64,000 nt of DNA from an uncultured virus (IMG/VR IMGVR_UViG_3300020056_000009) (taxonomy: Duplodnaviria; Heunggongvirae; Uroviricota; Caudoviricetes), in IMG/VR virus record IMGVR_UViG_3300020056_000009; one strand, written 5' to 3'. Positions 8,521 through 63,339 of this stretch are shown here, piece after piece. Within the stretch, counting starts at the first letter, position 1, and the number at the start of each line of letters is the position of its first letter. The position numbers and the translations under genes are program-made. The notes under the pieces were generated by a model. That model saw nothing but the letters and a program-made list of their open reading frames with translations, did no database searches and was not told where the DNA came from.

Positions 8521-9405
8521 ATGTTGCCACTTCCTGTGACCTCATTCCCACCCCAAGAGGTATGGACTTCCGTAGATTCGGGAGAAACTTACCCTCTCGA
8601 ATGGTGGTGGAACAATTATGTTTTGTCTCGAAATCCCGACGGCACCATTACTGCTGATACTAAATATTCTCGGGGAATTCCCCCTATGACGCTTCGTCAA
8701 GTCTCCATTATGGCTTCTGAAGATTCAGAAACTATTAAAATAGGGTGTCGAGATCCTAATTCTGCTGACTATTGTGAAGATTGTGAAGTCAAAGATAATT
8801 CCAAATGTGGCGTTTGTAAATCAGGATACACTCGCACCGAAGATGGCGAATGTTGGAAAATTGGTTACCGAGTTGTCGATTGTAAAACCAATGACATTTA
8901 TTATGGGCCTTTAGGCTATTATCAAAATTGTGATCTCAAACCTAAAGACAAAGATGGATATTGTTATATTCAAGATCCTGAACACTATAAGACTTTTGGT
9001 TCCGTATACAACATTAGTGATAATCGGGATTTTAAAGGACGCTTAAGAACACATCCGTGGATTAAGAAAAAATGGGGAACTTCTGACGAATCTCAAAGAT
9101 ATCATTATGTATCTTCTGACGGCACTAAAAAATTGGGTCGTAATTCTGATACTTGGAAAAAAATCAAAGAAAATTGTGGTGGCGAAGTTACCGAAACCCG
9201 AGTAGATACCGGACCCACTTATTTGGGCACTTTAGCAGGACAAAATCCCGAAGACCCCAAAGTAATAACAATTGATAACAATCAACAACAACAGCAAACA
9301 ACAGATGGTATGCAATCTCAAATTGAACCCGAAACCCCCGGTTTTCCGTGGCTTTGGGTTGGTTTAGGAGGCTTAGCCGTTTTGCCCCTCTTCTTAAATC
9401 GATAA
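8521..9405 (+). CDS. Cys-rich tail-anchored membrane protein
   Basis: GCRDPNSADY and EGF-like Cys; C-terminal WLWVGLGGLAVLPLFLNR. Confidence 0.8.
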   Translation: MLPLPVTSFPPQEVWTSVDSGETYPLEWWWNNYVLSRNPDGTITADTKYSRGIPPMTLRQVSIMASEDSETIKIGCRDPNSADYCEDCEVKDNSKCGVCKSGYTRTEDGECWKIGYRVVDCKTNDIYYGPLGYYQNCDLKPKDKDGYCYIQDPEHYKTFGSVYNISDNRDFKGRLRTHPWIKKKWGTSDESQRYHYVSSDGTKKLGRNSDTWKKIKENCGGEVTETRVDTGPTYLGTLAGQNPEDPKVITIDNNQQQQQTTDGMQSQIEPETPGFPWLWVGLGGLAVLPLFLNR

Positions 9406-9440: not shown

Positions 9441-10208
9441 ATGAGTTTCGCTTGGGGTCAATCTTTGCCCTCCAACCATTATCGCACCAGCGAGTATCGT
9501 CGATCTCTCTACTCCGAAACTCAAACTTTTGAGGCACCTGCAGAAAGAGCAGTTCGTAATTCTATTTTAGACCAAGTAGATGATGCAGTTATTCCGAATA
9601 TCCGCCGACAACTAAAGGATGGTGGTGGCAACGCTGCCCTTAAATCTTTGGGTGATATGGACGATAAACAAATCCGCAAGTTATTTGAGGGATTGGTAGA
9701 TTCTGATAATTTCGATCAAATCGATAAAGGATGGCTTAAGAAAATGATTAAGGGAGAAGCCTTGGATAATGCAGATCTCAATCGTTTAGCCTCTTCAATT
9801 ACTTCTGATAGTCTTCAAAAAACTCTTACTCAAGAATCTCTTAAATCTGCTACCGATGCTGCCGCCGATGCTATTGAGAATGCGGCTGATTTTAGCCCTC
9901 GACAAAAAACCCTTATGCGATATGGATTAGCCGGAACAACAGTAGTTGGCACCGCTGCGGTCTTTATGGGATTGGGCGGTAACGAAGCCATTCAAAAGTT
10001 TATGGATTCCCAAACAGGCCGTGATTGTGATATTAAGGCTATGGACCAAGGATTGACGGAAGGTAGTGTAGAATACACTACGGCTGTTGAAGCCTGTCAA
10101 GAAGGATCTCTAAAAACTCTTCGTAATATGGGATATGCAGTTATCGCTGTTGGTGGTTTGTTAGGTTTTATTGCTATCACTCGTTTAATTCCTAAGAAGG
10201 AGGAATGA
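9441..10208 (+). CDS. membrane protein with C-terminal anchor
   Basis: Gly-rich hydrophobic segment plus C-terminal YAVIAVGGLLGFIAITRLIPKK. Confidence 0.85.
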   Translation: MSFAWGQSLPSNHYRTSEYRRSLYSETQTFEAPAERAVRNSILDQVDDAVIPNIRRQLKDGGGNAALKSLGDMDDKQIRKLFEGLVDSDNFDQIDKGWLKKMIKGEALDNADLNRLASSITSDSLQKTLTQESLKSATDAAADAIENAADFSPRQKTLMRYGLAGTTVVGTAAVFMGLGGNEAIQKFMDSQTGRDCDIKAMDQGLTEGSVEYTTAVEACQEGSLKTLRNMGYAVIAVGGLLGFIAITRLIPKKEE

Positions 10209-11239
10209 TTATGGGTTGGGCAAACCAACAAGGTTTCGAATCTGTTGAAGGCTTATCCACAGGGCTTCAATGGGCTGTCGATAATGCTGGAAAAGTAGCC
10301 TGTAAAACCGAATTTAAATCTCGTGTTAAAATCGTAGATGCGTCTGATAAAGATTTGAAAATTGATACTCAAAATGGAAACTTTATGTGGATGGAAGTTC
10401 CCGAAGGTTCTTCTATCTACTATGAGGTCGAAACTCTTGCTGACAAGAAAAAGGGTGCTTCAGATCGAGTTACTTTAGAAATCACCTATATGGATACTTC
10501 TTATTTGGGACGCATGATTAACTTGGCTTTAGAAGAGTTGGATGAAGATAGTTTGGTTAAAGTTCTTACGGGCGATACAGAACCGATTACCACATGGTTA
10601 GAAGGCAATCCTGATTTGGTAGACCCTTCATTACTTATGGCAACTATTTATTCCGAAACCATCACTACCAATGAAGAAGGCAAAGCCTCCGGAATTATTC
10701 CCATTGATAAATCTTGGCCGCTTTCCAATTATACTCTCAATTTCCATTATGGTTATTCTGCTTTGGCAGAACAATCTACGGGAGAGAAAACTTCTCGTTT
10801 GTGGATTGATGATATTGGACCCATTGTAGCCGAATTGTTACTGACTGCTGCTATTGGCGTTATTTCAGGAGGGGCTGCTTTAGGTATTAAGGCTGCCCAA
10901 GCCCTTAAAGCCGGACAAACCGTTGCTCGAATTAACAAGGCTCGTCGAATTGCCGAAGTAGTTGGTCTAATTCAATTAGCCAAGCAATATTTTAAACAAG
11001 GTTTTGGTATTGTAGGGTTAAACAAATATGATTGTTCTTTTCCCCTGTTAGGATTTAATCATACCTATGGGTTTGATAACAATTTTGAAACGGCCCTTTA
11101 TGATGAGTCGGGAAATCTTGATTTTTCCACTATTGATGAAAACAAATTAGAAGCCCTCATTAAGAAAAATTTGGCTCGTAACCTTGCCATTGGAGTTATT
11201 TTCACAGGATTATTAATTGCGGGATTGAGGAGGAAATAA
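10205..11239 (+). CDS. membrane protein with C-terminal anchor
   Basis: GGAGG SD; internal LLLTAAIGVISGGAALG; ends LAIGVIFTGLLIAGLRRK. Confidence 0.85.
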   Translation: MIMGWANQQGFESVEGLSTGLQWAVDNAGKVACKTEFKSRVKIVDASDKDLKIDTQNGNFMWMEVPEGSSIYYEVETLADKKKGASDRVTLEITYMDTSYLGRMINLALEELDEDSLVKVLTGDTEPITTWLEGNPDLVDPSLLMATIYSETITTNEEGKASGIIPIDKSWPLSNYTLNFHYGYSALAEQSTGEKTSRLWIDDIGPIVAELLLTAAIGVISGGAALGIKAAQALKAGQTVARINKARRIAEVVGLIQLAKQYFKQGFGIVGLNKYDCSFPLLGFNHTYGFDNNFETALYDESGNLDFSTIDENKLEALIKKNLARNLAIGVIFTGLLIAGLRRK

Positions 11240-11240
11240 G

Positions 11241-12170
11241 ATGGCTCTACAAGATAAGTTGTTAGGCTCTCCCGTAATTCTTTTGGGGCAAGATTCTGCA
11301 TCCATTGATACCGTATCTCTTTGTGGTTCTAAACATGAAGCATGGGTTTGGGTAACTGACGAAGACGAATCAGGATCTCCTAATGCTTTACAAGATAGTA
11401 TTATCGTAGGATTCAAAGGTTTAGATTCCAGCGGAGCCGGATGCATTGATGCTATTACCGAAGGTGCTCTTACCTATATCACCGATTTTAAACAATGGAG
11501 TGATACTGTTCAAGAAGGATATCAAGTTCTCAAAGACCGTGCAGATAATTGTCAAGGGGCTTGGGACTGCACTAAAGATTACACTAAATTAGGAATTTAT
11601 TCCAGTGCTGCTGGATTAACTACTGCTGCCGGAACTATTGGTTCGGGAGTAGCCTCCACTACCAAAAAGGGATGGAAAAAGGTCAAAGGATGGTTTTCGG
11701 CAGAATCCTTTTCAGCAGATACGATTCAAAACTGCACCGATAATTTTGGAGGAACTTTGTTTCACAATCAAAGTGGATCTGAACACAAAGTTAAAATTAT
11801 TGTAAATAAGTTATATCAAGGCGTAACAACCAAAGTTCACGAAGTTGAATTAGCAGGATCTTCCGAATACAAAAAGGTAGATAACAAACTATGGTTCGAA
11901 CCCGCCTATAAAAAATTAAAACTTACTGGACCGGGTATGTATACTATTCAAATCAAATCTTTGGCTGCTAATCAGGAATGTGGCACACCCGATTTAGATT
12001 TTACCACTACGGTTGAAGTTCTTCCTGATACTTCTGTTACTGAAGATACTTCAGGAGATGCGGTCGGATCTTTAGTAGCCTCTACCGGAGTTCGCCCACT
12101 TTATGTTTATGGAGGCATTATTTTATTTGGTGGTTTACTACTCTCCAAATTATACTCTCCAAGAAAATAG
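11241..12170 (+). CDS. membrane protein with C-terminal anchor
   Basis: GAGGAGG SD; FSAESFSAD; ends LYVYGGIILFGGLLLSKLYSPRK. Confidence 0.85.
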   Translation: MALQDKLLGSPVILLGQDSASIDTVSLCGSKHEAWVWVTDEDESGSPNALQDSIIVGFKGLDSSGAGCIDAITEGALTYITDFKQWSDTVQEGYQVLKDRADNCQGAWDCTKDYTKLGIYSSAAGLTTAAGTIGSGVASTTKKGWKKVKGWFSAESFSADTIQNCTDNFGGTLFHNQSGSEHKVKIIVNKLYQGVTTKVHEVELAGSSEYKKVDNKLWFEPAYKKLKLTGPGMYTIQIKSLAANQECGTPDLDFTTTVEVLPDTSVTEDTSGDAVGSLVASTGVRPLYVYGGIILFGGLLLSKLYSPRK

Positions 12171-21761: not shown

Positions 21762-21887
21762 ATGTCATGGGAACTCCACGACCCCGAACCCCCGGAAGAT
21801 ATTCCGTGGCATTCTAAAATCTTAATCTTACTTTTCATGTTTGGCATTTTTGGTATGGGTGCTTTGACACAAAGTATATATTGGTGA
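21762..21887 (+). CDS. 41-aa tail-anchored peptide (absent from ORF track)
   Basis: AGGAG SD; acidic N-terminus plus ILILLFMFGIFGMGAL. Confidence 0.55.
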   Translation: MSWELHDPEPPEDIPWHSKILILLFMFGIFGMGALTQSIYW

Positions 21888-28222: not shown

Positions 28223-28369
28223 ATGGAGTTCGAATTAGCGGTGCAAAAGGCAGAACACTCCGCCATTGTTACCCAAATGCAATGCAATAATGTTCAACAC
28301 CGCTTATCACATCTTAATCAATGTGCTCGGGTATTATTGGCTAAATCACTTCGATTTTTGAAGGAGTGA
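28223..28369 (+). CDS. 48-aa peptide (absent from ORF track)
   Basis: TATAAATAG 30 nt upstream with an imperfect hairpin; stop overlaps the next GTG. Confidence 0.6.
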   Translation: MEFELAVQKAEHSAIVTQMQCNNVQHRLSHLNQCARVLLAKSLRFLKE

Positions 28370-28689
28370 TTATCTTGTCAGATACCGATTTATCAGGAGT
28401 CGAAGAGGCTCTACGAGATTTCGCTCTTATGATGGAGGGGTTTTTAGCCGACTCCGATAGTTATGCTGTGGCTCTTAACAATTTAGAACATACTGTTGGT
28501 GACCTCAAAGAAGACCTTTCCGGATTATTGAAAACAGTTCGTGATGGTAATGGACAACCACCGCTTACTACCCGTTTGGCAGTTATCGAAGAAAAAGTGG
28601 CTGAAGCCGATCGAAAACTAAATCGATGGTGGGCTTTGTTAGTAGCCGCCGTTCCAGGTTTCTTGGCTTTCTTGCAAAACATGATGTGA
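28366..28689 (+). CDS. coiled-coil tail-anchored protein
   Basis: heptads, GNGQPPL, C-terminal WWALLVAAVPGFLAFL. Confidence 0.75.
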   Translation: MIILSDTDLSGVEEALRDFALMMEGFLADSDSYAVALNNLEHTVGDLKEDLSGLLKTVRDGNGQPPLTTRLAVIEEKVAEADRKLNRWWALLVAAVPGFLAFLQNMM

Positions 28690-32797: not shown

Positions 32798-33109
32798 ATG
32801 TGGGATGATATCTTTAACAATTATTTTAGAACATACCGAAGACCTTATACGACCCGTCGATTTGACAACTTTTATGTCGATCTTTATCGTATGATGGAAG
32901 AAGCCCTTGATGAAGTAGAACCCAAACCTGAACCACCCAAGCCGGAATTCAAAATTGTGTCTACTAAAACGGTTAAGCGAAACGGTAATACTTACCGTGT
33001 TACTGTCGAAAAATTATCAGATTCAGAAGAATCCGATGACACCCCTGAAGTTCAAATTGATGAATCGGCGGAAGACTTTGACGAAGACACCAAGAATGAT
33101 ATGGCTTGA
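32798..33109 (+). CDS. hypothetical protein with acidic tail
   Basis: TATAAGTAG promoter with GTAGGTG-gt-CACCTAC palindrome. Confidence 0.7.
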   Translation: MWDDIFNNYFRTYRRPYTTRRFDNFYVDLYRMMEEALDEVEPKPEPPKPEFKIVSTKTVKRNGNTYRVTVEKLSDSEESDDTPEVQIDESAEDFDEDTKNDMA

Positions 33110-33114
33110 TAGTT

Positions 33115-33516
33115 ATGCCTTTCAAAGATCCGGAAAAGCGAAAGGAATATCAAAAACAGTATCAACGCAAGTATTATCTCAACAATAAAACTGCGTTTAT
33201 CAATAGATCTGTTGCCAATAAGCGTTTGCGTCGTCAAGAAAAGAAAGATTGGCTCCATGCCCAATTGGGTGGTGTCTGTCAAAAATGTGGCTACAATAAC
33301 CCCGCCGGATTAGATGTTCATCACACCGATTCTACCCTCAAACAGAATTGGGGCACCATTCGTCCCGGACAACAAGGAGGTAGCGGAGTCATCCGACCTA
33401 AAGGCATCACAGATTATTCTTGGAAAGACCTCAAAGCCAAACTTCACACTTTAGAATTACTCTGTTCTAATTGTCATCGAGAACATCATGCCGAATCCGA
33501 TGATTCGGAAGAATGA
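33115..33516 (+). CDS. HNH endonuclease-like protein
   Basis: MPFKDPEKRKEY..CQKCG..LDVHH..LCSNCHREHH. Confidence 0.8.
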   Translation: MPFKDPEKRKEYQKQYQRKYYLNNKTAFINRSVANKRLRRQEKKDWLHAQLGGVCQKCGYNNPAGLDVHHTDSTLKQNWGTIRPGQQGGSGVIRPKGITDYSWKDLKAKLHTLELLCSNCHREHHAESDDSEE

Positions 33517-36652: not shown

Positions 36653-36850
36653 ATGAATTGGACACAAGTTGCAGGAATCGCTGCTATTGTCGGCGGTGGA
36701 TATTTTGCTATCGCCAATCTTCGTGCCCTTTATGGCATGGGCTGTCACCGACCTGCTTCGCTTTTAGTAGGTTCTATCGGAGCCATCTATCTCGGTCTAC
36801 GGTTGGTGCAATCAACACCTAAGGCTGAGGAGGCTTCTTCAGATGAGTAA
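36653..36850 (+). CDS. small two-TM membrane protein
   Basis: two hydrophobic helices; promoter-hairpin upstream. Confidence 0.75.
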   Translation: MNWTQVAGIAAIVGGGYFAIANLRALYGMGCHRPASLLVGSIGAIYLGLRLVQSTPKAEEASSDE

Positions 36851-41726: not shown

Positions 41727-42146
41727 ATGCGGTTTAGAAAAGAATTTGAAATGCCCATGAATAAATCTTCGACTGTTATTGCTACCATCGAAATCATGGA
41801 ATCAAATTGTTTAGAACAAATTATCGTGCACCCCATCCCCGGATTTTCCGCCAATGATTATGCCACTATTTCTATCACTCATGGATCTCAAGAATTATAT
41901 CGTGGAGAATTAGTATCAGATGGCATGGTAATTGATTTAGAACAATGTTTATTAGGTGGTTCCGACACCCCCGAAATTACCGTTTCCGTAGAATGCAGTT
42001 CCTTATGGGCAGCCCTGACCGGAGATTCCAGCGATACCGATCAAGAAACTTATTGGTGCAAAATGTCTATGGTCTTCCTTGATAACCATGTCAATTACGA
42101 GGAAATCGAAGAATTCGATTCCGGATTCCAATCCCAATGGGCATAG
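41727..42146 (+). CDS. hypothetical beta-rich protein
   Basis: 139-aa ORF filling the gap; start uncertain. Confidence 0.7.
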   Translation: MRFRKEFEMPMNKSSTVIATIEIMESNCLEQIIVHPIPGFSANDYATISITHGSQELYRGELVSDGMVIDLEQCLLGGSDTPEITVSVECSSLWAALTGDSSDTDQETYWCKMSMVFLDNHVNYEEIEEFDSGFQSQWA

Positions 42147-42177
42147 ATATAAATAGAAGAATCACCTATGGTTCGCC

Positions 42178-43173
42178 ATGAAGTTGCTTTTGTTCACCGG
42201 CAAAGGCGGTGTAGGCAAGTCTACCAGTTCGGCTGCCACCGCACTTTATTATTCTCGATTGGGCCTAAAAACCCTTTTGGTATCTTCCGACCCAGCCCAT
42301 AGCACCGATGATACTGTCGGCACTAAAATTGGAGATACTCCCCGAGAGATTAGTCCTAATTTATGGGCTATGAATATCAATGCTTCGGTAGTCACTCACG
42401 CTCGACAACAAGAGATGCATTCGGCCTTTGTCAAAACTTTTGGCAAGTTTATTCCTTCGCTTTCGGATGATGATTCCGGAATGTCAAAAGTCTTTTCTAT
42501 TAACAATGCTATTCCCGGAATTGACGAATGGGGTGCTGCCGAAGTTATGTCCCAACAATTTCAATCAGGACACTACGATCTTGTCGTTTTTGATACGGCT
42601 CCTACGGGACACACTCTCAAGGCTTTAGCAGCCCCCGCCCATGTCAAACAATTTATTTTACAACTCCGCCGACTCAAATCTAAAGTATTAGGAAAACTAA
42701 TGTTGTTTAAAAACCGAAATGAAATTGATGAATTAGAATTGGTTTTAGGAAAGTTTTGCGATGAAATCGATGAACTACGAACTAATCTATCGGACCCCAC
42801 GAAATCTAAAGTAGTTTTGGTAAGCATTCCTACGGAAGCCGGATTCATGGAGTTTTTCCGAACCGTTAAATATCTGCAATCCCTTAATCTAAATCCACAC
42901 ACTTTGGTATTAAATCATTTAGTTCCTGACATGGGATCTGAAGTTTGGGCTACGGCGAAAGATAATCCTGCTGTGACTATGGTTTATCATGAATATCGTA
43001 ATCAACAACCGTGGATTCAAAAATACCAAAAGGTTTGTGCTGATAATAACATTCGTTTAGTAGGTTCTGTTAGACTACCTTATGAGCCCAAAGGAGTTAC
43101 GACCGACTCTCATTTAGGTGATTTTGCGGAACTAATTTGTGGACCTGATAAAGTATCACCTCCGGAGGAATAA
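42178..43173 (+). CDS. Get3/TRC40/ArsA-family ATPase (single domain)
   Basis: GKGGVGKST, SSDPAHS, PGIDE, FDTAPTGHTL, helical insert after switch II. Confidence 0.93.
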   Translation: MKLLLFTGKGGVGKSTSSAATALYYSRLGLKTLLVSSDPAHSTDDTVGTKIGDTPREISPNLWAMNINASVVTHARQQEMHSAFVKTFGKFIPSLSDDDSGMSKVFSINNAIPGIDEWGAAEVMSQQFQSGHYDLVVFDTAPTGHTLKALAAPAHVKQFILQLRRLKSKVLGKLMLFKNRNEIDELELVLGKFCDEIDELRTNLSDPTKSKVVLVSIPTEAGFMEFFRTVKYLQSLNLNPHTLVLNHLVPDMGSEVWATAKDNPAVTMVYHEYRNQQPWIQKYQKVCADNNIRLVGSVRLPYEPKGVTTDSHLGDFAELICGPDKVSPPEE

Positions 43174-43175
43174 TA

Positions 43176-43481
43176 ATGGATTTAGAAATAATTGTATGGA
43201 TTTTAGTAGCCACGGTATTAGCACAGGGCGGATTATCTCTGTGGTTTGTTAATTGGGTTCTTTGGCGAAATAAATCTCTGACGGATTTAATTGTATGGAA
43301 ACAAGTTAATGGGGAAAAGTTAGATATTTTAGCCTCTCGTTTTAGAATTTCCACGCCTAAACCTCTTTGCGATTGGTGTGATACCGTTGGTCATAAAAAA
43401 GAAGACTGCCCCTCTAATCCCGATAATTATCATATCAATCAAGTAGAAGTCAAACCCATTACTCTTACCTTAGAGGATTAA
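43176..43481 (+). CDS. membrane-anchored CCHC Zn-knuckle protein
   Basis: N-terminal TM; CDWCDTVGHKKEDC; GGAGG SD. Confidence 0.75.
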   Translation: MDLEIIVWILVATVLAQGGLSLWFVNWVLWRNKSLTDLIVWKQVNGEKLDILASRFRISTPKPLCDWCDTVGHKKEDCPSNPDNYHINQVEVKPITLTLED

Positions 43482-43518
43482 GCAAAAATATATATAGTCG
43501 ATTGACGAATCAATCGTC

Positions 43519-44016
43519 ATGGGATTCTACGAATACAACTCATTTGGTAAGTTCCAAGCCGAAGCCGATTATAGTGATGCTCTTCCTGCTAACGCAGAAT
43601 TGATTGCTGGTTACGAAAGGGCTTTAGGAGAACAACACGAAATTTTTACCGATTTTGATGTTTCCGCTGGCAAAACCGCTAAGTTGGCAGTTTACAAAAA
43701 CGGCGACAAGTTCGATTTGATTGCTCTTGAAGGCACGGGTGCTTCCGATTATAAACTCCTTAAGCACTATGGAGAATTTGAGACACAAGATGCGGCTACG
43801 GCAGAGTTCGATACTTTGGTAGGCGAATGTTCCGATCCCAATGCTACTTACAACCAATCTACTAACAAGTGTGATTGTAACGAAGGATACCTTCTTAACT
43901 CTGATACCGGACTCTGTGAAGCCGAAGATGAAGGATTCCTCAAGGAAAACGCTATGGCTATCGGTATTGGGGCTGTGGCTTTAGCCCTTATGGGAATTGT
44001 TCTCAGCCGACGGTGA
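43519..44016 (+). CDS. tail-anchored protein with EGF-like Cys module
   Basis: FQAE; CSDPNA..CDCNEGY..C; ends AIGIGAVALALMGIVLSRR. Confidence 0.85.
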   Translation: MGFYEYNSFGKFQAEADYSDALPANAELIAGYERALGEQHEIFTDFDVSAGKTAKLAVYKNGDKFDLIALEGTGASDYKLLKHYGEFETQDAATAEFDTLVGECSDPNATYNQSTNKCDCNEGYLLNSDTGLCEAEDEGFLKENAMAIGIGAVALALMGIVLSRR

Positions 44017-44020
44017 TTAG

Positions 44021-44428
44021 TTGATTTGGACCGCAGTTTTAATTGGTGCTGCACCTATGGCAATTATGTTGCTTACTACTGATAAATTATTAAAGAATCA
44101 ACGACCTGTCGTTTATTACGGTGGACTTATTGGAGCCGGATTATTGGCTTGGCAAATTACCGAATGGTTAGACCGTCGATACCGACTTTCTCGACCCGAT
44201 CTTTTTGGTGCTGAATATATGATGGGTTTCGATAATGGTGATTTCGAAATGTGGCATTGGGCAGATGTCCCCGAAGATATTATCAAGCAAGGAAAAAATG
44301 CTATTGCTGAGTATATTTGGATGGAAGGCGAACTCTGTGATGGTGAAGAATGGGATGGGATGGAAGAAGACTTGGAAGATTCTGGCGATGATTGGCAACC
44401 TCTTTTAGATACGCTCCAAAAAGTATAA
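44021..44428 (+). CDS. membrane protein with acidic C-terminal module
   Basis: two TM segments, then LFGAE, then an acidic domain. Confidence 0.75.
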   Translation: MIWTAVLIGAAPMAIMLLTTDKLLKNQRPVVYYGGLIGAGLLAWQITEWLDRRYRLSRPDLFGAEYMMGFDNGDFEMWHWADVPEDIIKQGKNAIAEYIWMEGELCDGEEWDGMEEDLEDSGDDWQPLLDTLQKV

Positions 44429-47994: not shown

Positions 47995-49050
47995 ATGTCT
48001 GATTTCGACAATCTTATTCGTTCCGATGATTTCGATGAGGTCGAAAGACTTTTAGCCAAGGAACGAGCCGAAAAGAAAACTTCTAAAACCGAAAAGAAAA
48101 AGTCCCTCATGGAAATGGTTGCCGGTTCTAACGATGCTGCTGCTTTGGCTCGTCGTCTTAATGTAGATCCCGATATGTCGGAAAAGGTTTTAGTGCCTCT
48201 CTTAAATTTCCTTGATAAATATGGTGTTGGTGGGGCAGTAGCCGAATCATCTACGGCTCAAGCCGCCACAGGACTCTTTGAATTTTTGGGAGATATTACG
48301 CCTGTAATCAAACAAAGTATGGATTATTTTGCAGGACGACAAAATGAACTTAGCCAACAAGACCTTGATTTCCTAAATCAAATTAAGGATGCCCAAACCG
48401 GAGATATGGATGGTTTATTTATTGGAGAAACTATGGAAGAAACTCCTGCCGAACCTACACCACCTCCGGCACCCAAAGAACAACCGGGACAAATCCCCTT
48501 AGATGTAGACCCCTTCCGAGATGGTGTCGATTGGACTAAGGTAGTGGGAGAACAACCAAAACAAACCGTTATTCCTGAAGCCGAGCCTAATGAAGCCTAT
48601 ATTCAAAATTTGGAAAGATTGGCGGCTGCTTCGGGAATGAGTATGGACGATGTTAAGCGTTCTGATCGACAAGCCAAGACTAATAACTTTGGACGAGTAG
48701 AAAAAGAAATTGATTATTCTGATGCTTTCAATATTGATTTAGGATTAGAAAAGATTAATGCCGCTATGAATCAAGAAAAGAACAAATTGCAATCCTCTTC
48801 TAAAATCCAATTTGATGAGTCCGTTCCTGTTCCCGATTCGGCTACGGCTTTTGACCCTCTCGAAACTCCTAATTACACCACCCCATCATTTACCGGAACT
48901 TTACAATCCGTAGACCAATTAGCAGAAAATGCTGGAGTAGACCTTGACGCTCCGTGGGTTGAAGAAGATTATGACCCTGCTGATGATGATATTGGCTATG
49001 ATTTACCCACCATAGAACCTGATGAGGAGGTTTTAGGGGATGACGACTGA
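47995..49050 (+). CDS. hypothetical acidic protein
   Basis: TATAAATA 30 nt upstream; 351 aa. Confidence 0.85.
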   Translation: MSDFDNLIRSDDFDEVERLLAKERAEKKTSKTEKKKSLMEMVAGSNDAAALARRLNVDPDMSEKVLVPLLNFLDKYGVGGAVAESSTAQAATGLFEFLGDITPVIKQSMDYFAGRQNELSQQDLDFLNQIKDAQTGDMDGLFIGETMEETPAEPTPPPAPKEQPGQIPLDVDPFRDGVDWTKVVGEQPKQTVIPEAEPNEAYIQNLERLAAASGMSMDDVKRSDRQAKTNNFGRVEKEIDYSDAFNIDLGLEKINAAMNQEKNKLQSSSKIQFDESVPVPDSATAFDPLETPNYTTPSFTGTLQSVDQLAENAGVDLDAPWVEEDYDPADDDIGYDLPTIEPDEEVLGDDD

Positions 49051-51648: not shown

Positions 51649-54600
51649 ATGGATGATGACGAAATCAATGACGAAATCGACGAGTTAGGAGACCTTTTTA
51701 GCGATCTTCCTGAAGATACCGAAGAAATTAACACCGATGTTGATGAGGTTCCTACGGAAGCCCCACAAGATGACTCTTCTGAAGAAGAAACTATGGATGA
51801 TATCGTAGAAACTACCATTCCCGAAGAAGAAGGAACTAACATTCCTTTCCATCCTGATGTAATGCAAGAATTGTCTAATTTCGTTGGCACCGAAGAACTT
51901 GATGCTATTGCCAAGTTTATTATGCCCGAATATGACGAAGAAGGCGAAATTATTTCCCCACTTGTTACTTCACCACAAGCCCCGGATTCTATTAAGTTTG
52001 TTCGTTCCATTTTGGGTGGTAATACTGCCGACCTTCTCAACAAGGTAGCCGACCTTCGAGGAACCACTCTCAATGAGATGGTCAAAGTAGTAGAACTACC
52101 TGAAGATCTTAACCGTATCGATATTCTTAACGATGGTCTTGGCGGTGCCCGATTTATTCAAATGTTCGATGCTCAAGGTAATGATATTACCAGCGTTCTA
52201 AATTTGGATTTGGATGATATTGGACAACTTAAAGTAGACAAGGTTTTCCGTGGCTCCACTATGACCGCTTTAGATAATGGTGAAGGTCAATGGTCTCCCG
52301 ACAGCATGGGCAAGGCCGTATCTCCACCTTTCCAAGAGTATTACAATTTGATTTCACAACGAGAAACTCGTAAGCAACGAGTTGATACTCTCCAATGGCT
52401 CCGTAAACTTATTAACCGTCTTAACTCCGTTTTCGGTTTCGACGATTACCGACAATTAGAAGCATTTATGGCCGCATGGCTAATGAAGAACGCTACTTGC
52501 CGATTGTCAGGTATTCCAGGAACAGGAAAGACTACGGTTATTAACTGTGCTGCTACCCTTATGGGTAACTCCTATGGATTCCATATCAACAAAACCTATT
52601 TGGCTACCGATTCTACGATGGAAAAATATCCTCTCGATTATACCGGTAACCACACCCTCCCTGATTTCACGATGATTTATGCCGATAACTCTATGGTTTC
52701 CAATGCTCACATGGTTGATGTTGCTCCTTCAGGACAACAATACAATGTTTTGTATAACGACCAACGCAACGAATCCATTTATCGTAATTGGAATGGATGG
52801 CGTTTCCGAGATTGGCAACCTACGGCTCCCGGAACGGTGCGACTATCAGGATCTTATTCCTTTGATTTCAATTTCCTTCGACGCTACGAACCAGCCTATG
52901 AAAAATTAGGTCTTCCTGCTATCGATGGTGACCGATTGTCCAAAGCCCCCATGACCCCTGAAAAGTTCCACAAGGTTCTAAACAACTGTTGGGAAGTTGA
53001 AGTTGCTCAAGATTTCGATCTTAAAGCACACCTCAAGGGACAATCAATGTCCCATTGGGACCCCAACTCTGAAGGCTTCAAAGAGGCTAAAAAGGCTGGT
53101 AAAACTCGTATGATGGTTAAGCCAATTCAATATTTCGGTAGAGATGGTTCAGTATCTTTCTTTAATAACAATACTGGACCCACTTACGGACCCTACCAAA
53201 TGCGATTGCGATTCCCTGAAATTGATTCCGCTGTTATGGAAGATGGCTTTAAGCATATTACTGATTTGGCTACCTATATCGGTGCTACGGGACAACAAGG
53301 ATTGTTCTCCGATACGGGTCGTAACGAAGGTTATTGGCTCCGACATCTAATGTGCCATTGGTTTGTTGATGACCGCACTAACTCCGATCGCGGTTTGTTC
53401 GATATCAGCGTAGAAATGCTCCGAGAAATCGGTGTGGCAAAGATTGACTTCGACAAGCGACCTGATGAAGTTCTTTATGGTCTTGAAATCCGTGCTGTTG
53501 AAGCCGTAAACCAAGCCGGAGAAACAGTCAGCACCTATGAGTTCGAACCTGTGCCTCGTGAAATTGTAACGCAACCGGTTAAGTTCTTCAACGAAGCCAA
53601 CCGTTCTCAATCTGGTGTTGAAGACGCCGTTCTTGGTCTAATTGCTGAAAAGTTAGTCGAATATCGTGGTAAAACTTTCAAGTCTCCCGATTTCGTAGCA
53701 TGGATGGACACCAACCCTCACCAAAAGGGTAACGACTTGGCATTTACTGACCGTATCGATATGGAACTACTCTTTAAGTCAGTTTCTCTCGGTGGCCGAT
53801 ATGACCAATTGTCCAACAAATTCGGTGGGGCCGGTGGAAAAGAACCTCAACTAATCTTGGTAGATTATCTTACTAAGGATGGTAATGACCCCAATTCTTT
53901 CCGTCCTATGCGTATCGTTAATCTGTTCAGTCTATGGAAGACTGTCGGCAAAGATATGAAGTTTACATCCCCCGGTTCAACCTTTGATGGTCTGCGTGAT
54001 ATTTCAGTTATCTCGGTTCTGTTTTCCCAAATTTTCGCCAAGCGACCCTCTTCGATCACTTTTGGTGATAACGCCTACAACTACACTTTCGCTGAAGATG
54101 ATAATCTCAATCTTTACGAATCACCTCTTTTGGATTATTCTACCACTACCAACACCAACACTTCTGATAAGGGAACCACTTCTCCTGTGCTAACTGATGA
54201 TGCCAACCTAATTTTCGGTAGCATGGATGCTGGACAAGGACAACTACCAATTGTCTTTACTCGTGTTCTTGGTTTCCGTTTCACCAACTCTTTGGTAAAA
54301 CTATCTCAAGCCTTCGCATTCTTGCGAGGCAAAGATTTCGTTTCTCGCCAAGAAATTTTGGATGCTGTGCCTTATGTAATTGCACACCGTATGGGTCGTG
54401 CTAAGGCGGGTGCTAAAGACATGGAAGGAAACAACAAGGGTCTTGATGGAAACCGTTTGGGATATGTCAATGAACAAGAATTCATTCGAGAATTCATCGT
54501 TAAGGGCTATCTTGAAGGTAAAATCGGTGATGTTTCACCCTTTAACGAAGACAATAACAACCTCTTGGACAATGTAGATTATTTCTACAATCATTGTCGC

Positions 54601-55947: not shown

Positions 55948-55986
55948 CCCAAAAGTTAATATAGTTGATGACCTTAAGATAGTCAT

Positions 55987-57237
55987 ATGGCTAAGTTGCC
56001 CTCGACTTCGGTTCGTGCGTCAGCCCACTTGCCAGCCAATTTTATTGATACCTATAAAGTATTCAAGAAAATGACGGGTATTCCTTCCGATACTCAAATG
56101 GTTTTGTCTACCTCGCTTCACAATGCTTATACCAATTCTAAGCAAGTTTGTTTTGGACCGGAATGGGTAGACTCATCAATTCCTGCCAATTTTCATGGTT
56201 TCGATAATCTTGATGAAGTTATTGCCATGAATCAATTCGTTATTGCCCACGAAGTTGGACATCTTTCGGTTCAACCCGGGTGGGAAGTATCTTGGGGAAA
56301 AGACATTGGTGAATGGCCTATCGACCACGCTCGCCAACCCCGATGGAGCAATGTTTTCTCGGATGTCTTGGTAAACACCCACATTATGCAGGCTCGTGAT
56401 TGGTCACGCACCGGTTCAGATCCCGAAACTCAAAAGATTCTTGATTTGATGCCGTGGTCACAACGATGGCACTTAAAATCTCGCATTTGCGAAAATACTC
56501 TTAAACACGATATGCTTCGAGCCGCTGGCACTCTCCCTGATAACCGATATCAAGCCCCCGGTTTAGTTCGTGGTGCTTACGATCCTTCTGACCCTGATGA
56601 CCAATTTACTCCTGATGAAGCCTTGACTCCTCTTTATCAAGTTAAAACCGGACACGGAAGAGGATTCCAAGTTTACCCACCCCTTTCTCATTGTGTTTCC
56701 AAACCAGACAAATGGCGACAAGTAGTTGTTAAAACTGATTATAATTTAGTCCAATGTAGCCAATGTGAAGAGATTTTCCCCGATAAACTCCAAATTCGTG
56801 GTCGTTGTCCTCGATGTAACAAAAGTTGTTCCGCTTACAAAACTATTTCTGCTGGAACTTATACCGTTACCAAAACTAAAGATTTAAATCAAGAAGTTAA
56901 TCCTACCAATCCTACTTTTCCCCATTATTATGAAATTAATAATTCTTGGATTCCCTTTTATATTTGTCAAGAACTTTGTCCTGATTGTGGAGAAGCCGCT
57001 TCTTGCGATCTTACCGAAGGTTTTTCTACGGTAATCAACGACCCTGCAGCATCGGCTTGTTCCGAACAATCTACCCTTTGGCGAGTATTAGTTATGCAAG
57101 AATATGCTGGATTCCGTGCTCTCCAAGATGGTTTTAGAGGAAAAACAGGCATAGAAGCCGGATTAGCCTTTTTAGAGGCCATCGGTATTATTGCGGATTT
57201 TGCAGAAATGAAGTGTCAAGACTTCCCGGCGAGGTGA
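55987..57237 (+). CDS. HExxH metallopeptidase-like protein (DUF2201-N-like) with Zn ribbons
   Basis: IAHEVGH..NVFSDVLVN; CSQC, CPRC, CPDC. Confidence 0.7.
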   Translation: MAKLPSTSVRASAHLPANFIDTYKVFKKMTGIPSDTQMVLSTSLHNAYTNSKQVCFGPEWVDSSIPANFHGFDNLDEVIAMNQFVIAHEVGHLSVQPGWEVSWGKDIGEWPIDHARQPRWSNVFSDVLVNTHIMQARDWSRTGSDPETQKILDLMPWSQRWHLKSRICENTLKHDMLRAAGTLPDNRYQAPGLVRGAYDPSDPDDQFTPDEALTPLYQVKTGHGRGFQVYPPLSHCVSKPDKWRQVVVKTDYNLVQCSQCEEIFPDKLQIRGRCPRCNKSCSAYKTISAGTYTVTKTKDLNQEVNPTNPTFPHYYEINNSWIPFYICQELCPDCGEAASCDLTEGFSTVINDPAASACSEQSTLWRVLVMQEYAGFRALQDGFRGKTGIEAGLAFLEAIGIIADFAEMKCQDFPAR

Positions 57238-57241
57238 TATT

Positions 57242-59869: not shown

Positions 59870-59880
59870 GAAGTGAAAAA

Positions 59881-60960: not shown

Positions 60961-62124
60961 ATGTCTGAAGTAATTGATTTACCAGACCGTGTGGTTTTGG
61001 GTAAAGATATTCACTTCCCTGCTTATGGCAGCGATTCTATTATTTCTCAAGTGCTTTTCGTTACCGGAAAGCGTGGCTCTGGGAAATCTTGGACTGCTGC
61101 CGTGATTATGGAAGAGTATCATCGATTAGGACTCCAATTCGTTTGTTTCGATGCTCTTGACGCTCACGGTCATATTGGCGAACAATTACCCAATGTAGTT
61201 CCCCTTCGTCCCGGACCAGCGGAAACCATTAATATGAAAGAATTGGTAGAAACTCTCCGAAACACTCCCAAATCAGTTATTATTTCTATGGCGGGAATGC
61301 CCTTAGCCAAACAACAAGAAATGATTACCGAATATTGTGAGGCATTGTTAGAAGGCACTTTAGGAAAAGGAATTATGACTGTCTTTGAAGAATGTCAAGA
61401 CTTTATTCCTCAAATGGGCAAACCTAACTCGGCTGATGCTATTGTCCGACTTTGTAAATTGGGTCGGGCTTTAGGCTATGGAGCCACTTTGATTTCTCAG
61501 CGACCTGCGGGTGTTGGCAAAGAAGCACTTTCTCAGGCTTCTATTTACCTCGTTCACAATGTTATTAACGCTCGGGATCTCAAAGCCCTTGATGACCAAT
61601 TGTCTTTCGGAACTGATAAAAAAACCATTAAGCGAATGTTGGATGGTATCGCTAAAGCCAAAAAAGGAGAAGTTATTGCCTATGCTCCCGAGTTTTATCG
61701 AGATCGAGGTTATGTCGTCGTTGGTAAAATCCGAGGAGATCGAAAAACCGAACACAAAGGTCACAACATTGAAGTCAAAGATGCTCGGGAACGATTTTCT
61801 GAAGAAATTGATGACCATCGATCGTTATCTTCTTTAGACCGTCCTTTAGAAATCAACAAACCCCCGGTATCTAAACCCACTTTTTCTACTAATGTTGGTG
61901 GTGGCGTAGTCCCCCCATCAACTAAGGAAATTTTGATTCCTACCGAAAAGAAATCCGAGTGGTCACCAGAACCCGAAGAACCTGATTTTGAATATGATTT
62001 AGAATCCGAATCGGATTCGGAAGAATCTGATGTTAATCCTGTTGTCGTAGCCACTTTTGTCGGCGGAGTTATTCTCACCGGAACTTTAGGTTTCTTGGTT
62101 TATCGTGGCTTTAATTCAGCATGA
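60961..62124 (+). CDS. HerA/FtsK-superfamily ATPase with C-terminal membrane anchor
   Basis: GKRGSGKS, VFEECQ, LGRALG, ISQRP; ends VVVATFVGGVILTGTLGFLVYR. Confidence 0.88.
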   Translation: MSEVIDLPDRVVLGKDIHFPAYGSDSIISQVLFVTGKRGSGKSWTAAVIMEEYHRLGLQFVCFDALDAHGHIGEQLPNVVPLRPGPAETINMKELVETLRNTPKSVIISMAGMPLAKQQEMITEYCEALLEGTLGKGIMTVFEECQDFIPQMGKPNSADAIVRLCKLGRALGYGATLISQRPAGVGKEALSQASIYLVHNVINARDLKALDDQLSFGTDKKTIKRMLDGIAKAKKGEVIAYAPEFYRDRGYVVVGKIRGDRKTEHKGHNIEVKDARERFSEEIDDHRSLSSLDRPLEINKPPVSKPTFSTNVGGGVVPPSTKEILIPTEKKSEWSPEPEEPDFEYDLESESDSEESDVNPVVVATFVGGVILTGTLGFLVYRGFNSA

Positions 62125-62985: not shown

Positions 62986-63339
62986 ATGCTTCTAAACGAT
63001 GTGCCTGTAATTCAAGACCAAAACACCGGAGTATCTTGCTTCCCTTGGGAATCAGATATGGGTGCAGTCCACTCTTTTGACCTCAACAACTCTTCCGCTA
63101 TGACGGATTCTACTTTGGGCATGGTCGCTAAGGAAGATACCATGACGGAAGCCAATGTTACCAAAGAAGATGAAGAATCTGTCCAACAAGATGATGGTCA
63201 AGGCGAATCCGAATCAGATCTTGAAACCAAGGCTGCAGAAGGCACGACTTCCGGAATCGATTTCAAGAAGTTGGGTGTTATGGCTTTGGTAGGCGTTGGT
63301 GCTTACTCTGTTGTCACCATGATTCTTAACCGATATTGA
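62986..63339 (+). CDS. acidic tail-anchored protein
   Basis: KAAE; ends LGVMALVGVGAYSVVTMILNRY. Confidence 0.8.
   Translation: MLLNDVPVIQDQNTGVSCFPWESDMGAVHSFDLNNSSAMTDSTLGMVAKEDTMTEANVTKEDEESVQQDDGQGESESDLETKAAEGTTSGIDFKKLGVMALVGVGAYSVVTMILNRY

What the first reader, a model, noticed from the sequence alone, without database searches (positions are those of the whole stretch)
42178..44016. Element-encoded Get3/TRC40-like ATPase together with a large set of tail-anchored proteins
Seen: a single-domain Get3/ArsA ATPase with a helical insert after DTAPTGH, no ars genes nearby, and membrane-protein neighbours. The window has about nine proteins ending in a TM helix with no signal peptide (8521, 9441, 10205, 11241, 21762, 28366, 43519, 60961, 62986). 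Established: Get3/TRC40 delivers tail-anchored proteins to membranes, and archaeal homologs bind TA substrates. Inference: the element brings its own post-translational membrane-targeting pathway to build an envelope or vesicle. I am not aware of this being described for a virus.
Basis: partly seen in the sequence, partly recalled or inferred. Interest (0 to 1): 0.82.

Follow-up and report, generated by a model that had tools for sequence, protein, structure and literature searches.

The report
Virus-encoded Get3 chaperone with partner microprotein
A large uncultured virus-like element, probably of archaea, carries its own copy of Get3, the cell's chaperone for tail-anchored membrane proteins, always paired with a tiny membrane protein, which suggests that it helps to mount the element's many single-anchor membrane proteins.

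Summary
ORF 42178-43173 is an intact single-domain Get3/TRC40/ArsA-family ATPase: TIGR00345 182 bits, and archaeal Get3 structures are the best fold matches. It lacks the ArsA cysteine ligands and the CXXC motif, and no ars genes were found in the window.

It belongs to a clade found only on large virus-like contigs (up to 84-166 kb in IMG/VR, two with inverted terminal repeats). The best hits in 185,579 species genomes are 27-34% identical over most of the protein. One relative encodes PolD and TBP. The window uses a TATA-like box placed 30 nt before the ATG, so the host is probably an archaeon.

C-terminally anchored proteins without signal peptides are about 3.5 times enriched: 6 of 84 and 15 of 201 ORFs, against 21 of 999 cellular and 3 of 144 reference-virus ORFs. 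They include the HerA-type packaging ATPase.

New here: a 48-101-aa membrane microprotein abuts the Get3 stop codon in 11 of 13 loci.

Not supported: a complete pathway (no insertase found) or a demonstrated envelope. Client binding is inferred. I found no paper describing a virus-encoded Get3. Interest 0.68.

The parts
42148..42156 (+). Promoter-like TATA motif (TATAAATAG). Its first base lies 30 nt before the Get3 ATG.
   Evidence: The motif occurs 25 times in the window against 1.5 expected by chance. In 22 of the 25 an ATG ORF begins 29-32 nt after the motif's first base, against 7% of random positions.
42178..43173 (+). Single-domain Get3/TRC40/ArsA-family ATPase, 331 aa. It has no CXXC motif, no ArsA cysteine ligands and no C-terminal extra domain.
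   Evidence: The P-loop, switch I Asp38 and switch II DTAPT are invariant in 102 aligned sequences.
43176..43481 (+). Get3-coupled membrane microprotein. It has an N-terminal TM segment followed by the motif F-V-x-W-x-L-W-R-(W)-N. Here it is 101 aa long, with a C-x2-C-x4-H-x4-C extension. It starts 2 nt after the Get3 stop codon and has no promoter motif of its own.
   Evidence: A homologue lies within 50 nt of the Get3 stop in 11 of 13 viral-clade loci.
43489..43497 (+). Promoter-like TATA motif (TATATATAG), 30 nt before the ATG of the tail-anchored protein gene.
43519..44016 (+). Tail-anchored-type protein of 165 aa. The TM segment covers residues 143-165 and the protein ends in ...LSRR. It has no signal peptide. 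A stretch with four cysteines precedes the anchor.
   Evidence: Contigs from RNA libraries, identical to the window, lie on this gene in runs X23 and X24.
44021..44428 (+). Protein of 135 aa with an N-terminal TM segment.
41727..42146 (+). Upstream 139-aa ORF that is syntenic with relatives but only weakly similar to them.
   Evidence: 22% identity to L004 at E=1e-4.
60961..62124 (+). HerA/FtsK-superfamily putative packaging ATPase with a C-terminal TM segment (residues 358-381 of 387). It is the best-founded tail-anchored client, because the ATPase domain must stay in the cytoplasm.
   Evidence: Family assignment. The C-terminal TM segment is present in 4 of 4 orthologues.
62986..63339 (+). 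Tail-anchored-type protein of 117 aa with its own TATA motif at 62955.
   Evidence: The anchor is conserved in the G001 orthologue.
8521..9405 (+). Tail-anchored-type protein of 294 aa (TM segment 274-292) with a TATA motif at 8491.
9441..10208 (+). Tail-anchored-type protein of 255 aa (TM segment 229-252) with a TATA motif at 9411.
10205..11239 (+). Protein of 344 aa with a C-terminal TM segment (323-341) and a second hydrophobic segment (203-230).
   Evidence: Both segments are conserved in the G001 orthologue.
11241..12170 (+). Protein of 309 aa with a weaker C-terminal hydrophobic segment (283-305, score 1.51).
   Evidence: The G001 orthologue's anchor scores 2.17.
28366..28689 (+). Protein of 107 aa with a C-terminal hydrophobic segment (85-107, score 1.59).
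   Evidence: The G001 orthologue's anchor scores 2.04.
21762..21887 (+). 41-codon ORF with a hydrophobic C-terminal half. It is unverified as a gene.

Best explanation
**What it is.** The gene encodes a functional Get3/TRC40-type ATPase of the prokaryotic kind that lacks CXXC. It is a conserved gene in a long same-strand block of an undescribed family of large (about 150-170 kb) linear virus-like elements. These occur in coastal and marine metagenomes and most probably infect archaea.

**Shown here.**
- Family, fold and intact ATPase motifs.
- A virus-only clade.
- Conserved synteny, and the gene's own TATA-type promoter.
- Tight coupling to a small membrane protein.
- Enrichment and conservation of C-terminally anchored proteins.

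**Inferred mechanism.** As a homodimer, the ATPase captures hydrophobic anchors that leave the ribosome too late for co-translational targeting. These are the C-terminal TM segments of the element's many single-pass proteins, including the HerA-type packaging ATPase, and possibly the TM segments of very short proteins. It keeps them soluble and hands them to the membrane that the particle is built on or from.

Insertion itself would use a host insertase or be unassisted, since the element encodes none that I could recognise. The co-transcribed microprotein is either the membrane docking site for the ATPase or its first client.
For: **Identity.**
- PF02374 at 185 bits and TIGR00345 at 182 bits against a cutoff of 135.
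- The best solved sequence relatives are Chlamydomonas ARSA1 and the archaeal Get3 entries 3zq6 and 3ug6.
- The AF2 model has pLDDT 85.4.
- All 29 Foldseek rows shown among ranks 1-50 are Get3/TRC40, with the archaeal entries 3zq6 and 3ug7 first and no ArsA.
- The P-loop, Asp38 and DTAPT are invariant in 102 sequences.

**Not ArsA.** The positions aligned to the two N-domain cysteine ligands of ArsA hold no cysteine, and the helical region is about 14 aa longer than in ArsA. No ars genes were found.

**Element-specific and conserved.**
- 120 of the 120 listed homologues are 40-98% identical.
- The best of 518 relatives in 185,579 species genomes are 27-34% identical over most of the protein; one reaches 40% over only 153 residues.
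- In a FastTree the clade (51 rows) sits on one side of a branch with support 100.
- The same 5 IMG/VR contigs are found with the Get3 profile and with the ATPase profile.
- 38 of 84 window ORFs have homologues in relative G001, and the genes flanking Get3 keep the same order in L001-L004.

**Clients.**
- TA-type ORFs: 6 of 84 in the window and 15 of 201 in G001, against 21 of 999 in cellular loci (p=0.014 and p=2.9e-4) and 3 of 144 in ATV, PRD1, STIV and SH1.
- The anchors are conserved in 5 orthologue pairs, and in 4 of 4 packaging ATPases.
- None has a signal peptide.

**Coupling.** The microprotein is adjacent to the Get3 stop in 11 of 13 loci. TATA motifs stand before Get3 and before the next gene but not before the microprotein.

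**RNA libraries.** Contigs from four metatranscriptome runs lie on Get3 and its neighbours.
Against: - No binding or insertion was tested. The complex predictor was unavailable.
- The helical subdomain is not methionine-rich (4 Met in 128 residues), and its helices are no more amphipathic than control helices. A hydrophobic groove is therefore not shown.
- The insert region is 7-12 aa shorter than in the archaeal Get3 proteins that have been solved.
- CXXC is absent.
- No insertase was found.
- No virion or envelope protein was identified, so a membrane-containing particle is an assumption.
- Most anchors end in one to three basic residues. By the positive-inside rule this disfavours a C-terminus-out orientation.
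- The neighbouring TA protein has a stretch with four cysteines before its anchor, of a kind more usual outside the cell.
- PMC6593721 (passages read) found no correlation between the number of TA proteins and Get3-like genes in most bacteria, and proposes a general chaperone role.
- The TM predictor and the ORF caller are crude. The window and G001 are relatives, not independent samples.
- RNA-library contigs do not prove transcription (note).
Confidence: 0.55

Rival explanations
1. General holdase. The ATPase is a broad chaperone for aggregation-prone or hydrophobic proteins of the element, or for host proteins under infection stress. It would have no dedicated tail-anchor targeting role and would not deliver anything to a membrane.
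For: - PMC6593721 (passages read) argues that prokaryotic Get3 homologues may be general chaperones and that the TRC40 insert does not predict targeting.
- The nearest cellular relatives are the ArsA_ATPase + ArsA_HSP20 type, whose function is unknown (7 of 7 tested).
- No insertase or receptor homologue was found.
- A groove is not demonstrable from the sequence.
Against: - The ATPase motifs are strictly conserved.
- The window form has no HSP20-like domain, and the extension of the long viral forms shows no HSP20 similarity (hhalign probability 0.8%).
- The tight pairing with a membrane microprotein (11 of 13 loci) and the neighbourhood rich in membrane proteins point to the membrane.
- TA-type proteins are enriched.
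Confidence: 0.2
2. Another SIMIBI-type role. The protein would act as a membrane-associated switch or positioning ATPase (like ParA/MinD, or a regulator of assembly or packaging) and would be recruited by the microprotein. It would not carry client proteins.
For: - There are weak secondary hits to the ParA/MinD/CbiA families and to PHROG 'ParA-like partition protein' at E=1.8e-10.
- It is paired with a small membrane protein, as MinD-type systems pair with membrane or topology factors.
- In one relative the gene lies about 5 kb from the packaging ATPase.
Against: - The Get3/ArsA models score far higher (185 bits against 22-31 bits).
- The DTAPTGHT signature and the Get3-type helical subdomain are present.
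- All shown fold matches are Get3.
Confidence: 0.1
3. Host takeover. The viral Get3 competes with the host Get3 or replaces it, or supplies the function in a host that lacks one. It would redirect membrane insertion to viral proteins or block insertion of host tail-anchored proteins.
For: - The viral clade is highly diverged from every cellular homologue, with a long stem in the tree.
- The gene has its own promoter.
Against: - The host is unknown, so nothing can be compared.
- This reading overlaps the main explanation rather than excluding it.
Confidence: 0.08
4. ArsA-type arsenite-resistance auxiliary gene that energises a host ArsB or Acr3 pump.
For: - Some sources name homologues 'arsenite-transporting ATPase'.
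- Phage and prophage records do carry two-domain ArsA proteins of about 590 aa.
Against: - The ArsA equivalog model scores 104.6 bits against a cutoff of 650.
- The protein has a single domain.
- The positions aligned to the ArsA cysteine ligands hold no cysteine.
- No ars genes were found in the window or in the 134 G001 ORFs scanned outside the window-matching part.
- The best fold matches are Get3.
Confidence: 0.02

Closest known systems
Archaeal Get3/TRC40 (solved: Methanothermobacter 3zq6, Methanocaldococcus 3ug6/3ug7)
   Same: - Single-domain SIMIBI ATPase with GKGGVGK, DPAHS and DTAPTGHT motifs and a helical subdomain after switch II.
- These are the best sequence matches among single-domain chains (E 7e-36 and 2e-33) and the best fold matches (TM about 0.7, 27-29% identity).
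- According to PMC6593721 (passages read), archaeal homologues bind tail-anchored proteins, including at least one that lacks CXXC.
   Different: - Only 27-29% identical.
- The region between switch II and the next strand is 57 aa against about 64-69 aa.
- No CXXC motif.
- Encoded by a virus-like element.
- Always paired with a microprotein.
Prokaryotic Get3-like proteins with a C-terminal alpha-crystallin/HSP20-like domain (Pfam ArsA_ATPase + ArsA_HSP20)
   Same: - These are the nearest cellular sequences (27-34% identity).
- They are single-domain proteins with a TRC40-type insert region of 60-66 aa.
- They are similar in length (381-408 aa) to the long viral forms.
   Different: - The window protein has no C-terminal domain.
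- The extension of the long viral forms hits PF17886 in 0 of 8 cases and has hhalign probability 0.8% against the cellular domain.
- Only 3 of 79 cellular loci have any small hydrophobic ORF at the stop codon, and none carries the motif.
Eukaryotic GET/TRC pathway (Get3/TRC40 with the Get1/Get2 or WRB/CAML receptor-insertase)
   Same: - A homologous targeting ATPase.
- A proposed logic of capturing C-terminal anchors after translation.
- A membrane partner is plausible.
   Different: - No Get1/Get2/EMC3/YidC-like protein was found in the element.
- No CXXC motif.
- The residues that bind Get1, Get2 and Get4 were not examined.
- The candidate partner is a single-pass protein of 48-101 aa with no known family.
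ArsA arsenite-pump ATPase (1f48, 9nbl)
   Same: The same Pfam family and the same nucleotide-binding core (E about 1e-27 to 5e-29).
   Different: - ArsA has two fused domains and cysteine metalloid ligands, and it lacks the extended helical insert.
- None of this applies here.
Membrane-anchored packaging vertex of membrane-containing viruses such as PRD1 (ATPase P9 with small membrane proteins P20 and P22; roles recalled from the literature, gene list seen)
   Same: A packaging-type ATPase that works at a membrane, surrounded by many small single-pass proteins.
   Different: - Here the ATPase itself carries the anchor (4 of 4 orthologues).
- No double-jelly-roll capsid gene was recognised.
- PRD1, STIV, SH1 and ATV have few TA-type ORFs (3 of 144).
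- None of those four records appeared among the 7 weak matches when the Get3 was searched against 50,697 phage and archaeal-virus records.

Membership tests
Get3/TRC40/ArsA family (TIGR00345, PF02374) | A match above the curated cutoff of the family model. | tested here: met
   TIGR00345 scores 182.3 bits against a cutoff of 135. PF02374 scores 185 bits against a cutoff of 24.3.
Get3/TRC40/ArsA family (TIGR00345, PF02374) | Deviant Walker A motif (GKGGVGK), switch I (DPAHS, with the catalytic Asp) and switch II (DTAPTGHT). | tested here: met
   All three are present in the ORF. G8, K9, G10, G11, G13, K14, D38, H41, S42, D139, A141, P142 and T143 are invariant in 102 sequences.
Get3/TRC40 proper (tail-anchor targeting factor) | An extended helical subdomain with a TRC40-type insert (helices 7-9) in place of ArsA's short metal-binding helix. 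| tested here: met
   The region is 57 aa and helical, with a low-confidence lid-like stretch at 175-181. It is about 14 aa longer than the ArsA N-domain but 7-12 aa shorter than in 3zq6 and 3ug6.
Get3/TRC40 proper (tail-anchor targeting factor) | A hydrophobic, methionine-rich client groove. | tested here: inconclusive
   There are 4 Met in the 128 residues of the subdomain. The hydrophobic moments of helices 4, 6, 7 and 9 (z = 3.3, 0.2, 0.8, 1.7) are no higher than those of control helices.
Get3/TRC40 proper (tail-anchor targeting factor) | CXXC zinc motif at the dimer interface. | tested here: not met
   The protein has three cysteines (C194, C290, C320) and none lies in a CXXC. According to PMC6593721, some functional archaeal and plant Get3 proteins also lack it.
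Get3/TRC40 proper (tail-anchor targeting factor) | Residues that bind Get1/Get2/Get4, and a cognate membrane receptor. | not tested
   The binding residues were not mapped. No Get1/EMC3/YidC-like gene was found in the window or in G001. The microprotein is only a candidate partner.
Get3/TRC40 proper (tail-anchor targeting factor) | Binds the C-terminal TM segments of clients and delivers them to a membrane. | not testable with these tools
This needs biochemistry.
ArsA arsenite-pump ATPase (TIGR04291) | Two tandem ATPase domains, and a match above the equivalog cutoff. | tested here: not met
   The protein has one domain of 331 aa. It scores 104.6 bits against a cutoff of 650.
ArsA arsenite-pump ATPase (TIGR04291) | Cysteine metalloid ligands. 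| tested here: not met
   In the alignment to 9nbl, the two N-domain ArsA cysteines align to residues that are not cysteine.
ArsA arsenite-pump ATPase (TIGR04291) | An ars operon context (ArsB/Acr3, ArsD, ArsR, ArsC). | tested here: not met
   No such Pfam hit appeared among 83 window ORFs or among 134 ORFs of relative G001.
Get3-like with alpha-crystallin domain (ArsA_ATPase + ArsA_HSP20) | A C-terminal HSP20-like domain (PF17886). | tested here: not met
   The window protein ends about 60-70 aa earlier than the cellular proteins. None of 8 long viral forms hits PF17886, against 7 of 7 cellular ones. hhalign gives probability 0.8%.

The most novel reading that the evidence does not exclude
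The element encodes a minimal two-part membrane-targeting device. One part is a Get3 ATPase. The other is a co-translated single-pass microprotein with the conserved motif F-V-x-W-x-L-W-R-(W)-N and a short acidic cytoplasmic tail. The microprotein would serve as the ATPase's membrane receptor, in place of Get1/Get2. The device would be dedicated to loading the element's tail-anchored proteins, including the DNA-packaging ATPase, onto the membrane of the nascent particle. This would be the first virus-encoded protein-targeting pathway. It would also give a handle on the still unknown Get3 receptor of archaea.
Probability: 0.15. Interest if true: 0.88.

Novelty: new variant of a known kind. Interest (0 to 1): 0.68.

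Why it matters
Viruses are known to borrow host machinery to insert their membrane proteins. I found no report of one that carries its own targeting factor; the searches were made, with passages checked.

A Get3 that is conserved in a whole family of large, probably archaeal, viruses would show that post-translational membrane targeting can limit virion assembly. It sits beside many conserved tail-anchored proteins and is always paired with a tiny membrane protein.

It would also offer a compact natural system of two genes plus defined clients for studying how CXXC-less prokaryotic Get3 proteins work and what they dock to. PMC6593721 describes this as an open question (passages read).

The family itself also appears to be undescribed. 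It has linear genomes of about 160 kb with terminal repeats, and one member encodes PolD and TBP.

Tried and rejected
**Identifying the particle type.**
- Pfam and PHROGs on 83 window ORFs, Pfam on 134 G001 ORFs and PHROGs on 44 of them gave no capsid, portal, terminase or tail family. The only packaging-type hit was the HerA-like ATPase.
- The ESM Atlas found only unnamed viral clusters for 47995-49050 (score 0.92). For 55987-57237 the best row, also unnamed, scored 0.92, and rows carrying DUF2201_N scored 0.85-0.87, which is a lead only.
- The 351-aa protein has 59 homologues but looks helical and acidic, not capsid-like, so I did not fold it.

**Finding the host.** The PolD large subunit of G001 is 40-46% identical in the listed matches to 300 of 301 genomes of the phylum of G004 (a MAG titled Thermoplasmatota archaeon), and 40-43% identical to an Archaeoglobaceae MAG and an unclassified archaeal MAG. 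No host signal emerged. There are no tRNAs in the window and one tRNA-Ala in G001.

**Finding the donor of the gene.** The viral clade sits on a very long stem, about 3 substitutions per site to every cellular tip. The FastTree gives no sister group and the tool itself warns of long-branch joins.

**HSP20 likeness of the long-form C-terminus.** Rejected.

**Groove hydrophobicity from helical moments.** Uninformative.

**A PGF-CTERM-like reading of the tail of 8521-9405 (…PGF + TM + NR).** Considered only. There is no signal peptide, and it was not scanned against the NCBIfam model.

- Complex prediction for the Get3 dimer plus the microprotein was unavailable.
- No whole genome is held for the window.
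- This scan's earlier findings held nothing by place or by sequence.

**RNA runs.** In X23 and X24 most of the 6-kb stretch has no contig laid on it. That says nothing about silence. Depths were not used to rank genes.
Full report
**1. The gene**

ORF 42178-43173 (+) encodes 331 aa that begin MKLLLFTGKGGVGKS. It matches Pfam ArsA_ATPase at 185 bits. It matches NCBIfam TIGR00345 'TRC40/GET3/ArsA family' at 182.3 bits against a cutoff of 135. The ArsA equivalog TIGR04291 reaches only 104.6 bits against a cutoff of 650.

Among solved structures, the best sequence matches are Chlamydomonas ARSA1 (5zme, E 2e-42) and the archaeal Get3 entries 3zq6 (7e-36) and 3ug6 (2e-33). ArsA (1f48, 9nbl) follows at about 1e-27 to 5e-29.

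An AlphaFold2 model built on 102 sequences has mean pLDDT 85.4 and pTM 0.83. Its low-confidence stretches are 100-102 and 175-181. All 29 Foldseek rows shown among ranks 1-50 are Get3/TRC40, led by 3zq6 and 3ug7 (TM about 0.7). No ArsA is among them.

**2. Get3 or ArsA**

In the residue-by-residue alignment to the ArsA entry 9nbl, the two N-domain cysteine ligands of ArsA align to non-cysteine residues. ArsA also shows gaps of 10 and 4 residues in the helical region after DTAPTGHT. That region is 57 aa here and 56-59 aa throughout the viral clade. It is 60-66 aa in the nearest cellular homologues and about 64-69 aa in 3zq6 and 3ug6.

- The protein has three cysteines and no CXXC.
- The P-loop, Asp38, His41/Ser42 and DTAPT are invariant in 102 aligned sequences, so the ATPase should be active.
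- None of 83 window ORFs hits an ars family.
- A hydrophobic groove could not be shown. There are 4 Met in 128 subdomain residues, and the helical hydrophobic moments are no greater than those of control helices.

**3. The element**

The window has no tRNA. Its genes include:
- UvdE;
- a 5'-3' exonuclease;
- an ERCC4 nuclease;
- two N6/N4 DNA methylases;
- a class II ribonucleotide reductase;
- an ATP-dependent ligase;
- a 1432-aa MoxR-like protein and a VWA protein;
- a HerA/FtsK-type ATPase.

Most ORFs have no family.

IMG/VR holds five related contigs of 84-166 kb. Two of them are recorded with inverted terminal repeats. I read 160,000 bases of one, G001. 38 of 84 window ORFs have homologues in it, and the genes flanking Get3 keep the same order in L001-L004. 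Outside the part that matches the window, G001 encodes:
- TBP;
- the large subunit of the archaea-specific PolD;
- a PolX;
- an archaeo-eukaryotic primase;
- an XPD-like helicase;
- an archaeal-type Holliday-junction nuclease.

Independent evidence comes from the window itself. The motif TATAWATAG occurs 25 times against 1.5 expected; 0 of 100 shuffles reach 25. In 22 of the 25 an ATG-initiated ORF starts 29-32 nt after the motif's first base, against 7% of random positions. A TATA-like box centred about 26 nt before the start codon is the arrangement of archaeal promoters of leaderless mRNAs; this interpretation rests on established knowledge and not on a tool.

The element is therefore most probably an archaeal virus, but two things remain open:
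- No capsid, portal or terminase family was found, so the particle type is unknown.
- The host could not be narrowed down.

The stretch is held by 18 salt-marsh metagenome runs of one year. Four of them are flagged as possible sources of this DNA.

**4. A virus-only Get3 clade**

All 120 listed homologues are 40-98% identical and share C-terminal motifs. A scan of one genome for each of 185,579 prokaryotic species used motifs that are invariant in the clade. It found 518 relatives, and the best 80 were kept. These are 27-34% identical over most of the protein, and one reaches 40% over only 153 residues. They are mostly bacteria, with five archaea. All seven that I tested carry the ArsA_HSP20 domain.

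In a FastTree of 123 rows, the 51 viral-clade rows sit on one side of a branch with support 100. The stem is very long, so no donor can be named.

A profile of the packaging ATPase finds exactly the same five IMG/VR contigs as the Get3 profile, so I found no relative that lacks Get3. Ten more clade members came from metagenome contigs.

Many relatives have a 50-80-aa C-terminal extension that the window form lacks. This extension shows no detectable HSP20 similarity.

**5. Tail-anchored proteins**

I used the same crude ORF caller and hydropathy scan everywhere. A TA-type ORF was defined as having one TM segment that ends within 30 aa of the C-terminus and none near the N-terminus.

| Set | TA-type ORFs |
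|---|---|
| Window | 6 of 84 (one ORF doubtful) |
| G001 | 15 of 201 |
| 80 cellular loci | 21 of 999 |
| ATV, PRD1, STIV, SH1 | 3 of 144 |

- Fisher tests against the cellular loci give p=0.014 for the window and p=2.9e-4 for G001.
- The window and G001 pooled against the four viruses give p=0.026. The window and G001 are relatives, so the pooled tests overstate independence.
- The anchor is conserved in the G001 orthologues of 10205, 11241, 28366, 60961 and 62986, and in 4 of 4 packaging-ATPase orthologues.
- None of the eight longer candidates has a signal-peptide-like N-terminus.
- No ORF of G001 has three or more TM segments.

The packaging ATPase is the firmest case. Its ATPase domain must be cytoplasmic, so its C-terminal segment is a true tail anchor.

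There are two caveats:
- Most tails end in one to three basic residues.
- The neighbour 43519-44016 has a stretch with four cysteines before its anchor.

**6. The coupled microprotein**

ORF 43176-43481 starts 2 nt after the Get3 stop codon. Homologues of 48-64 aa have an N-terminal 'MD', a TM segment, the motif F-V-x-W-x-L-W-R-(W)-N and a short acidic tail.

- They lie within 50 nt of the Get3 stop, often overlapping it, in 11 of 13 distinct viral-clade loci that have downstream sequence.
- In one lineage the gene is displaced by about 2 kb.
- In one lineage it was not found.
- Among 79 cellular loci only 3 have any small hydrophobic ORF at that place, and none carries the motif.

TATA motifs stand 30 nt before Get3 (42148) and before the next gene (43489), but not before the microprotein. 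The pair is therefore probably one transcript. TATA-like variants occupy the same position before Get3 in 9 of 12 relatives (read from the sequences printed).

I did not check that locus.

**7. RNA libraries**

Contigs from four metatranscriptome runs lie on the region:
- In X19 and X20, a relative that is about 90-98% identical across the listed pieces covers most of Get3 and the genes up to 45859.
- In X23 and X24, short contigs identical to the window lie at 42009-42194, on the TA gene, and at 44166-44386.

Such contigs do not prove transcription, because DNA can be present in RNA libraries.

**8. Reading**

The identity as a Get3-type ATPase is secure. The function rests on inference from four things: family, conservation, the membrane-protein context and the enriched, conserved anchors.

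The review PMC6593721 (passages read) cautions that prokaryotic Get3 homologues may be general chaperones. I therefore give 0.55 to targeting or chaperoning of the element's anchored proteins, 0.2 to a general holdase, and the rest to other roles.

Searches of the paper library found no virus-encoded Get3 and no description of this virus family. Supplements were not consulted.

Noticed in passing
window-wide; for example 42148, 43489, 38301, 36328, 62955 and 8491: The motif TATAWATAG occurs 25 times against 1.5 expected. In 22 of the 25 an ATG ORF starts exactly 29-32 nt after it. This looks like an archaeal-type TATA box driving leaderless mRNAs. It also corrects some start codons: the ORF listed from 46657 probably starts at 46678.
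   Followed up: yes
window, upstream of 36358, 18339, 45027, 38331 and 27904: Many genes have their own perfect 8-9-bp palindrome between the TATA-like motif and the ATG. The sequence differs from gene to gene but the position is the same. Whether it is an operator or a 5' hairpin is unexplained.
   Followed up: no
L013:6624-10190 (-), L008:15740-16381 (+) and other ORFs of IMG/VR relative G001: The 160-kb relative encodes the large subunit of the archaea-specific DNA polymerase D (three DP2 Pfam domains, E 1e-83 to 1e-105), a TBP, a PolX fusion, an archaeo-eukaryotic primase, three C5 DNA methylases and a CDC48-like AAA ATPase. My literature searches found no report of a virus-encoded PolD.
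   Followed up: partly
window 51649-60918: A conserved block holds a 1432-aa protein with a MoxR-type AAA lid, a 416-aa protein whose ESM Atlas rows carrying a metallopeptidase-like domain (DUF2201_N) scored 0.85-0.87, an 875-aa protein and a VWA-like protein. It lies just upstream of the packaging ATPase. It recalls the MoxR/VWA pair of Acidianus two-tailed virus; that comparison is from memory and was not tested.
   Followed up: no
window 43176-43481, C-terminal half: Only the window's version of the microprotein carries a 45-aa extension with a zinc-knuckle-like C-x2-C-x4-H-x4-C motif.
   Followed up: no
window 36653-36850: A 65-aa protein with two hydrophobic segments has its own TATA motif at 36623. 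Similar two-segment proteins of 67-72 aa occur in relatives (L100 9266-9469; G001 68155-68373). It is a candidate small hydrophobic structural protein.
   Followed up: no
protein P0130, a 68%-identical homologue of window 47995-49050: This protein cluster is listed as seen on a contig of 104,430,999 bases, the size of a eukaryotic chromosome scaffold. It may reflect contamination or scaffolding of a symbiont's virus.
   Followed up: no
window 44018-44420: The close relative in RNA-library runs X19 and X20 replaces 44018-44088 and lacks 44218-44420 (201 nt). The N-terminally anchored protein gene 44021-44428 is therefore an indel hot spot. The genes between Get3 and the conserved 124-aa gene also differ between relatives.
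   Followed up: partly
window 23690-25693 and 33106-33516: A 667-aa protein with a C-terminal homing-endonuclease or HNH-like region lies just before the ribonucleotide reductase gene. A separate 136-aa HNH endonuclease is also present. These are probably mobile nucleases.
   Followed up: no
L136 and L137 (metagenome contigs): Two Get3 homologues are 33% identical over the full length, between the viral clade (39-46%) and the usual cellular level. Their context was not examined. They might mark a sister lineage or a host-side relative.
   Followed up: no
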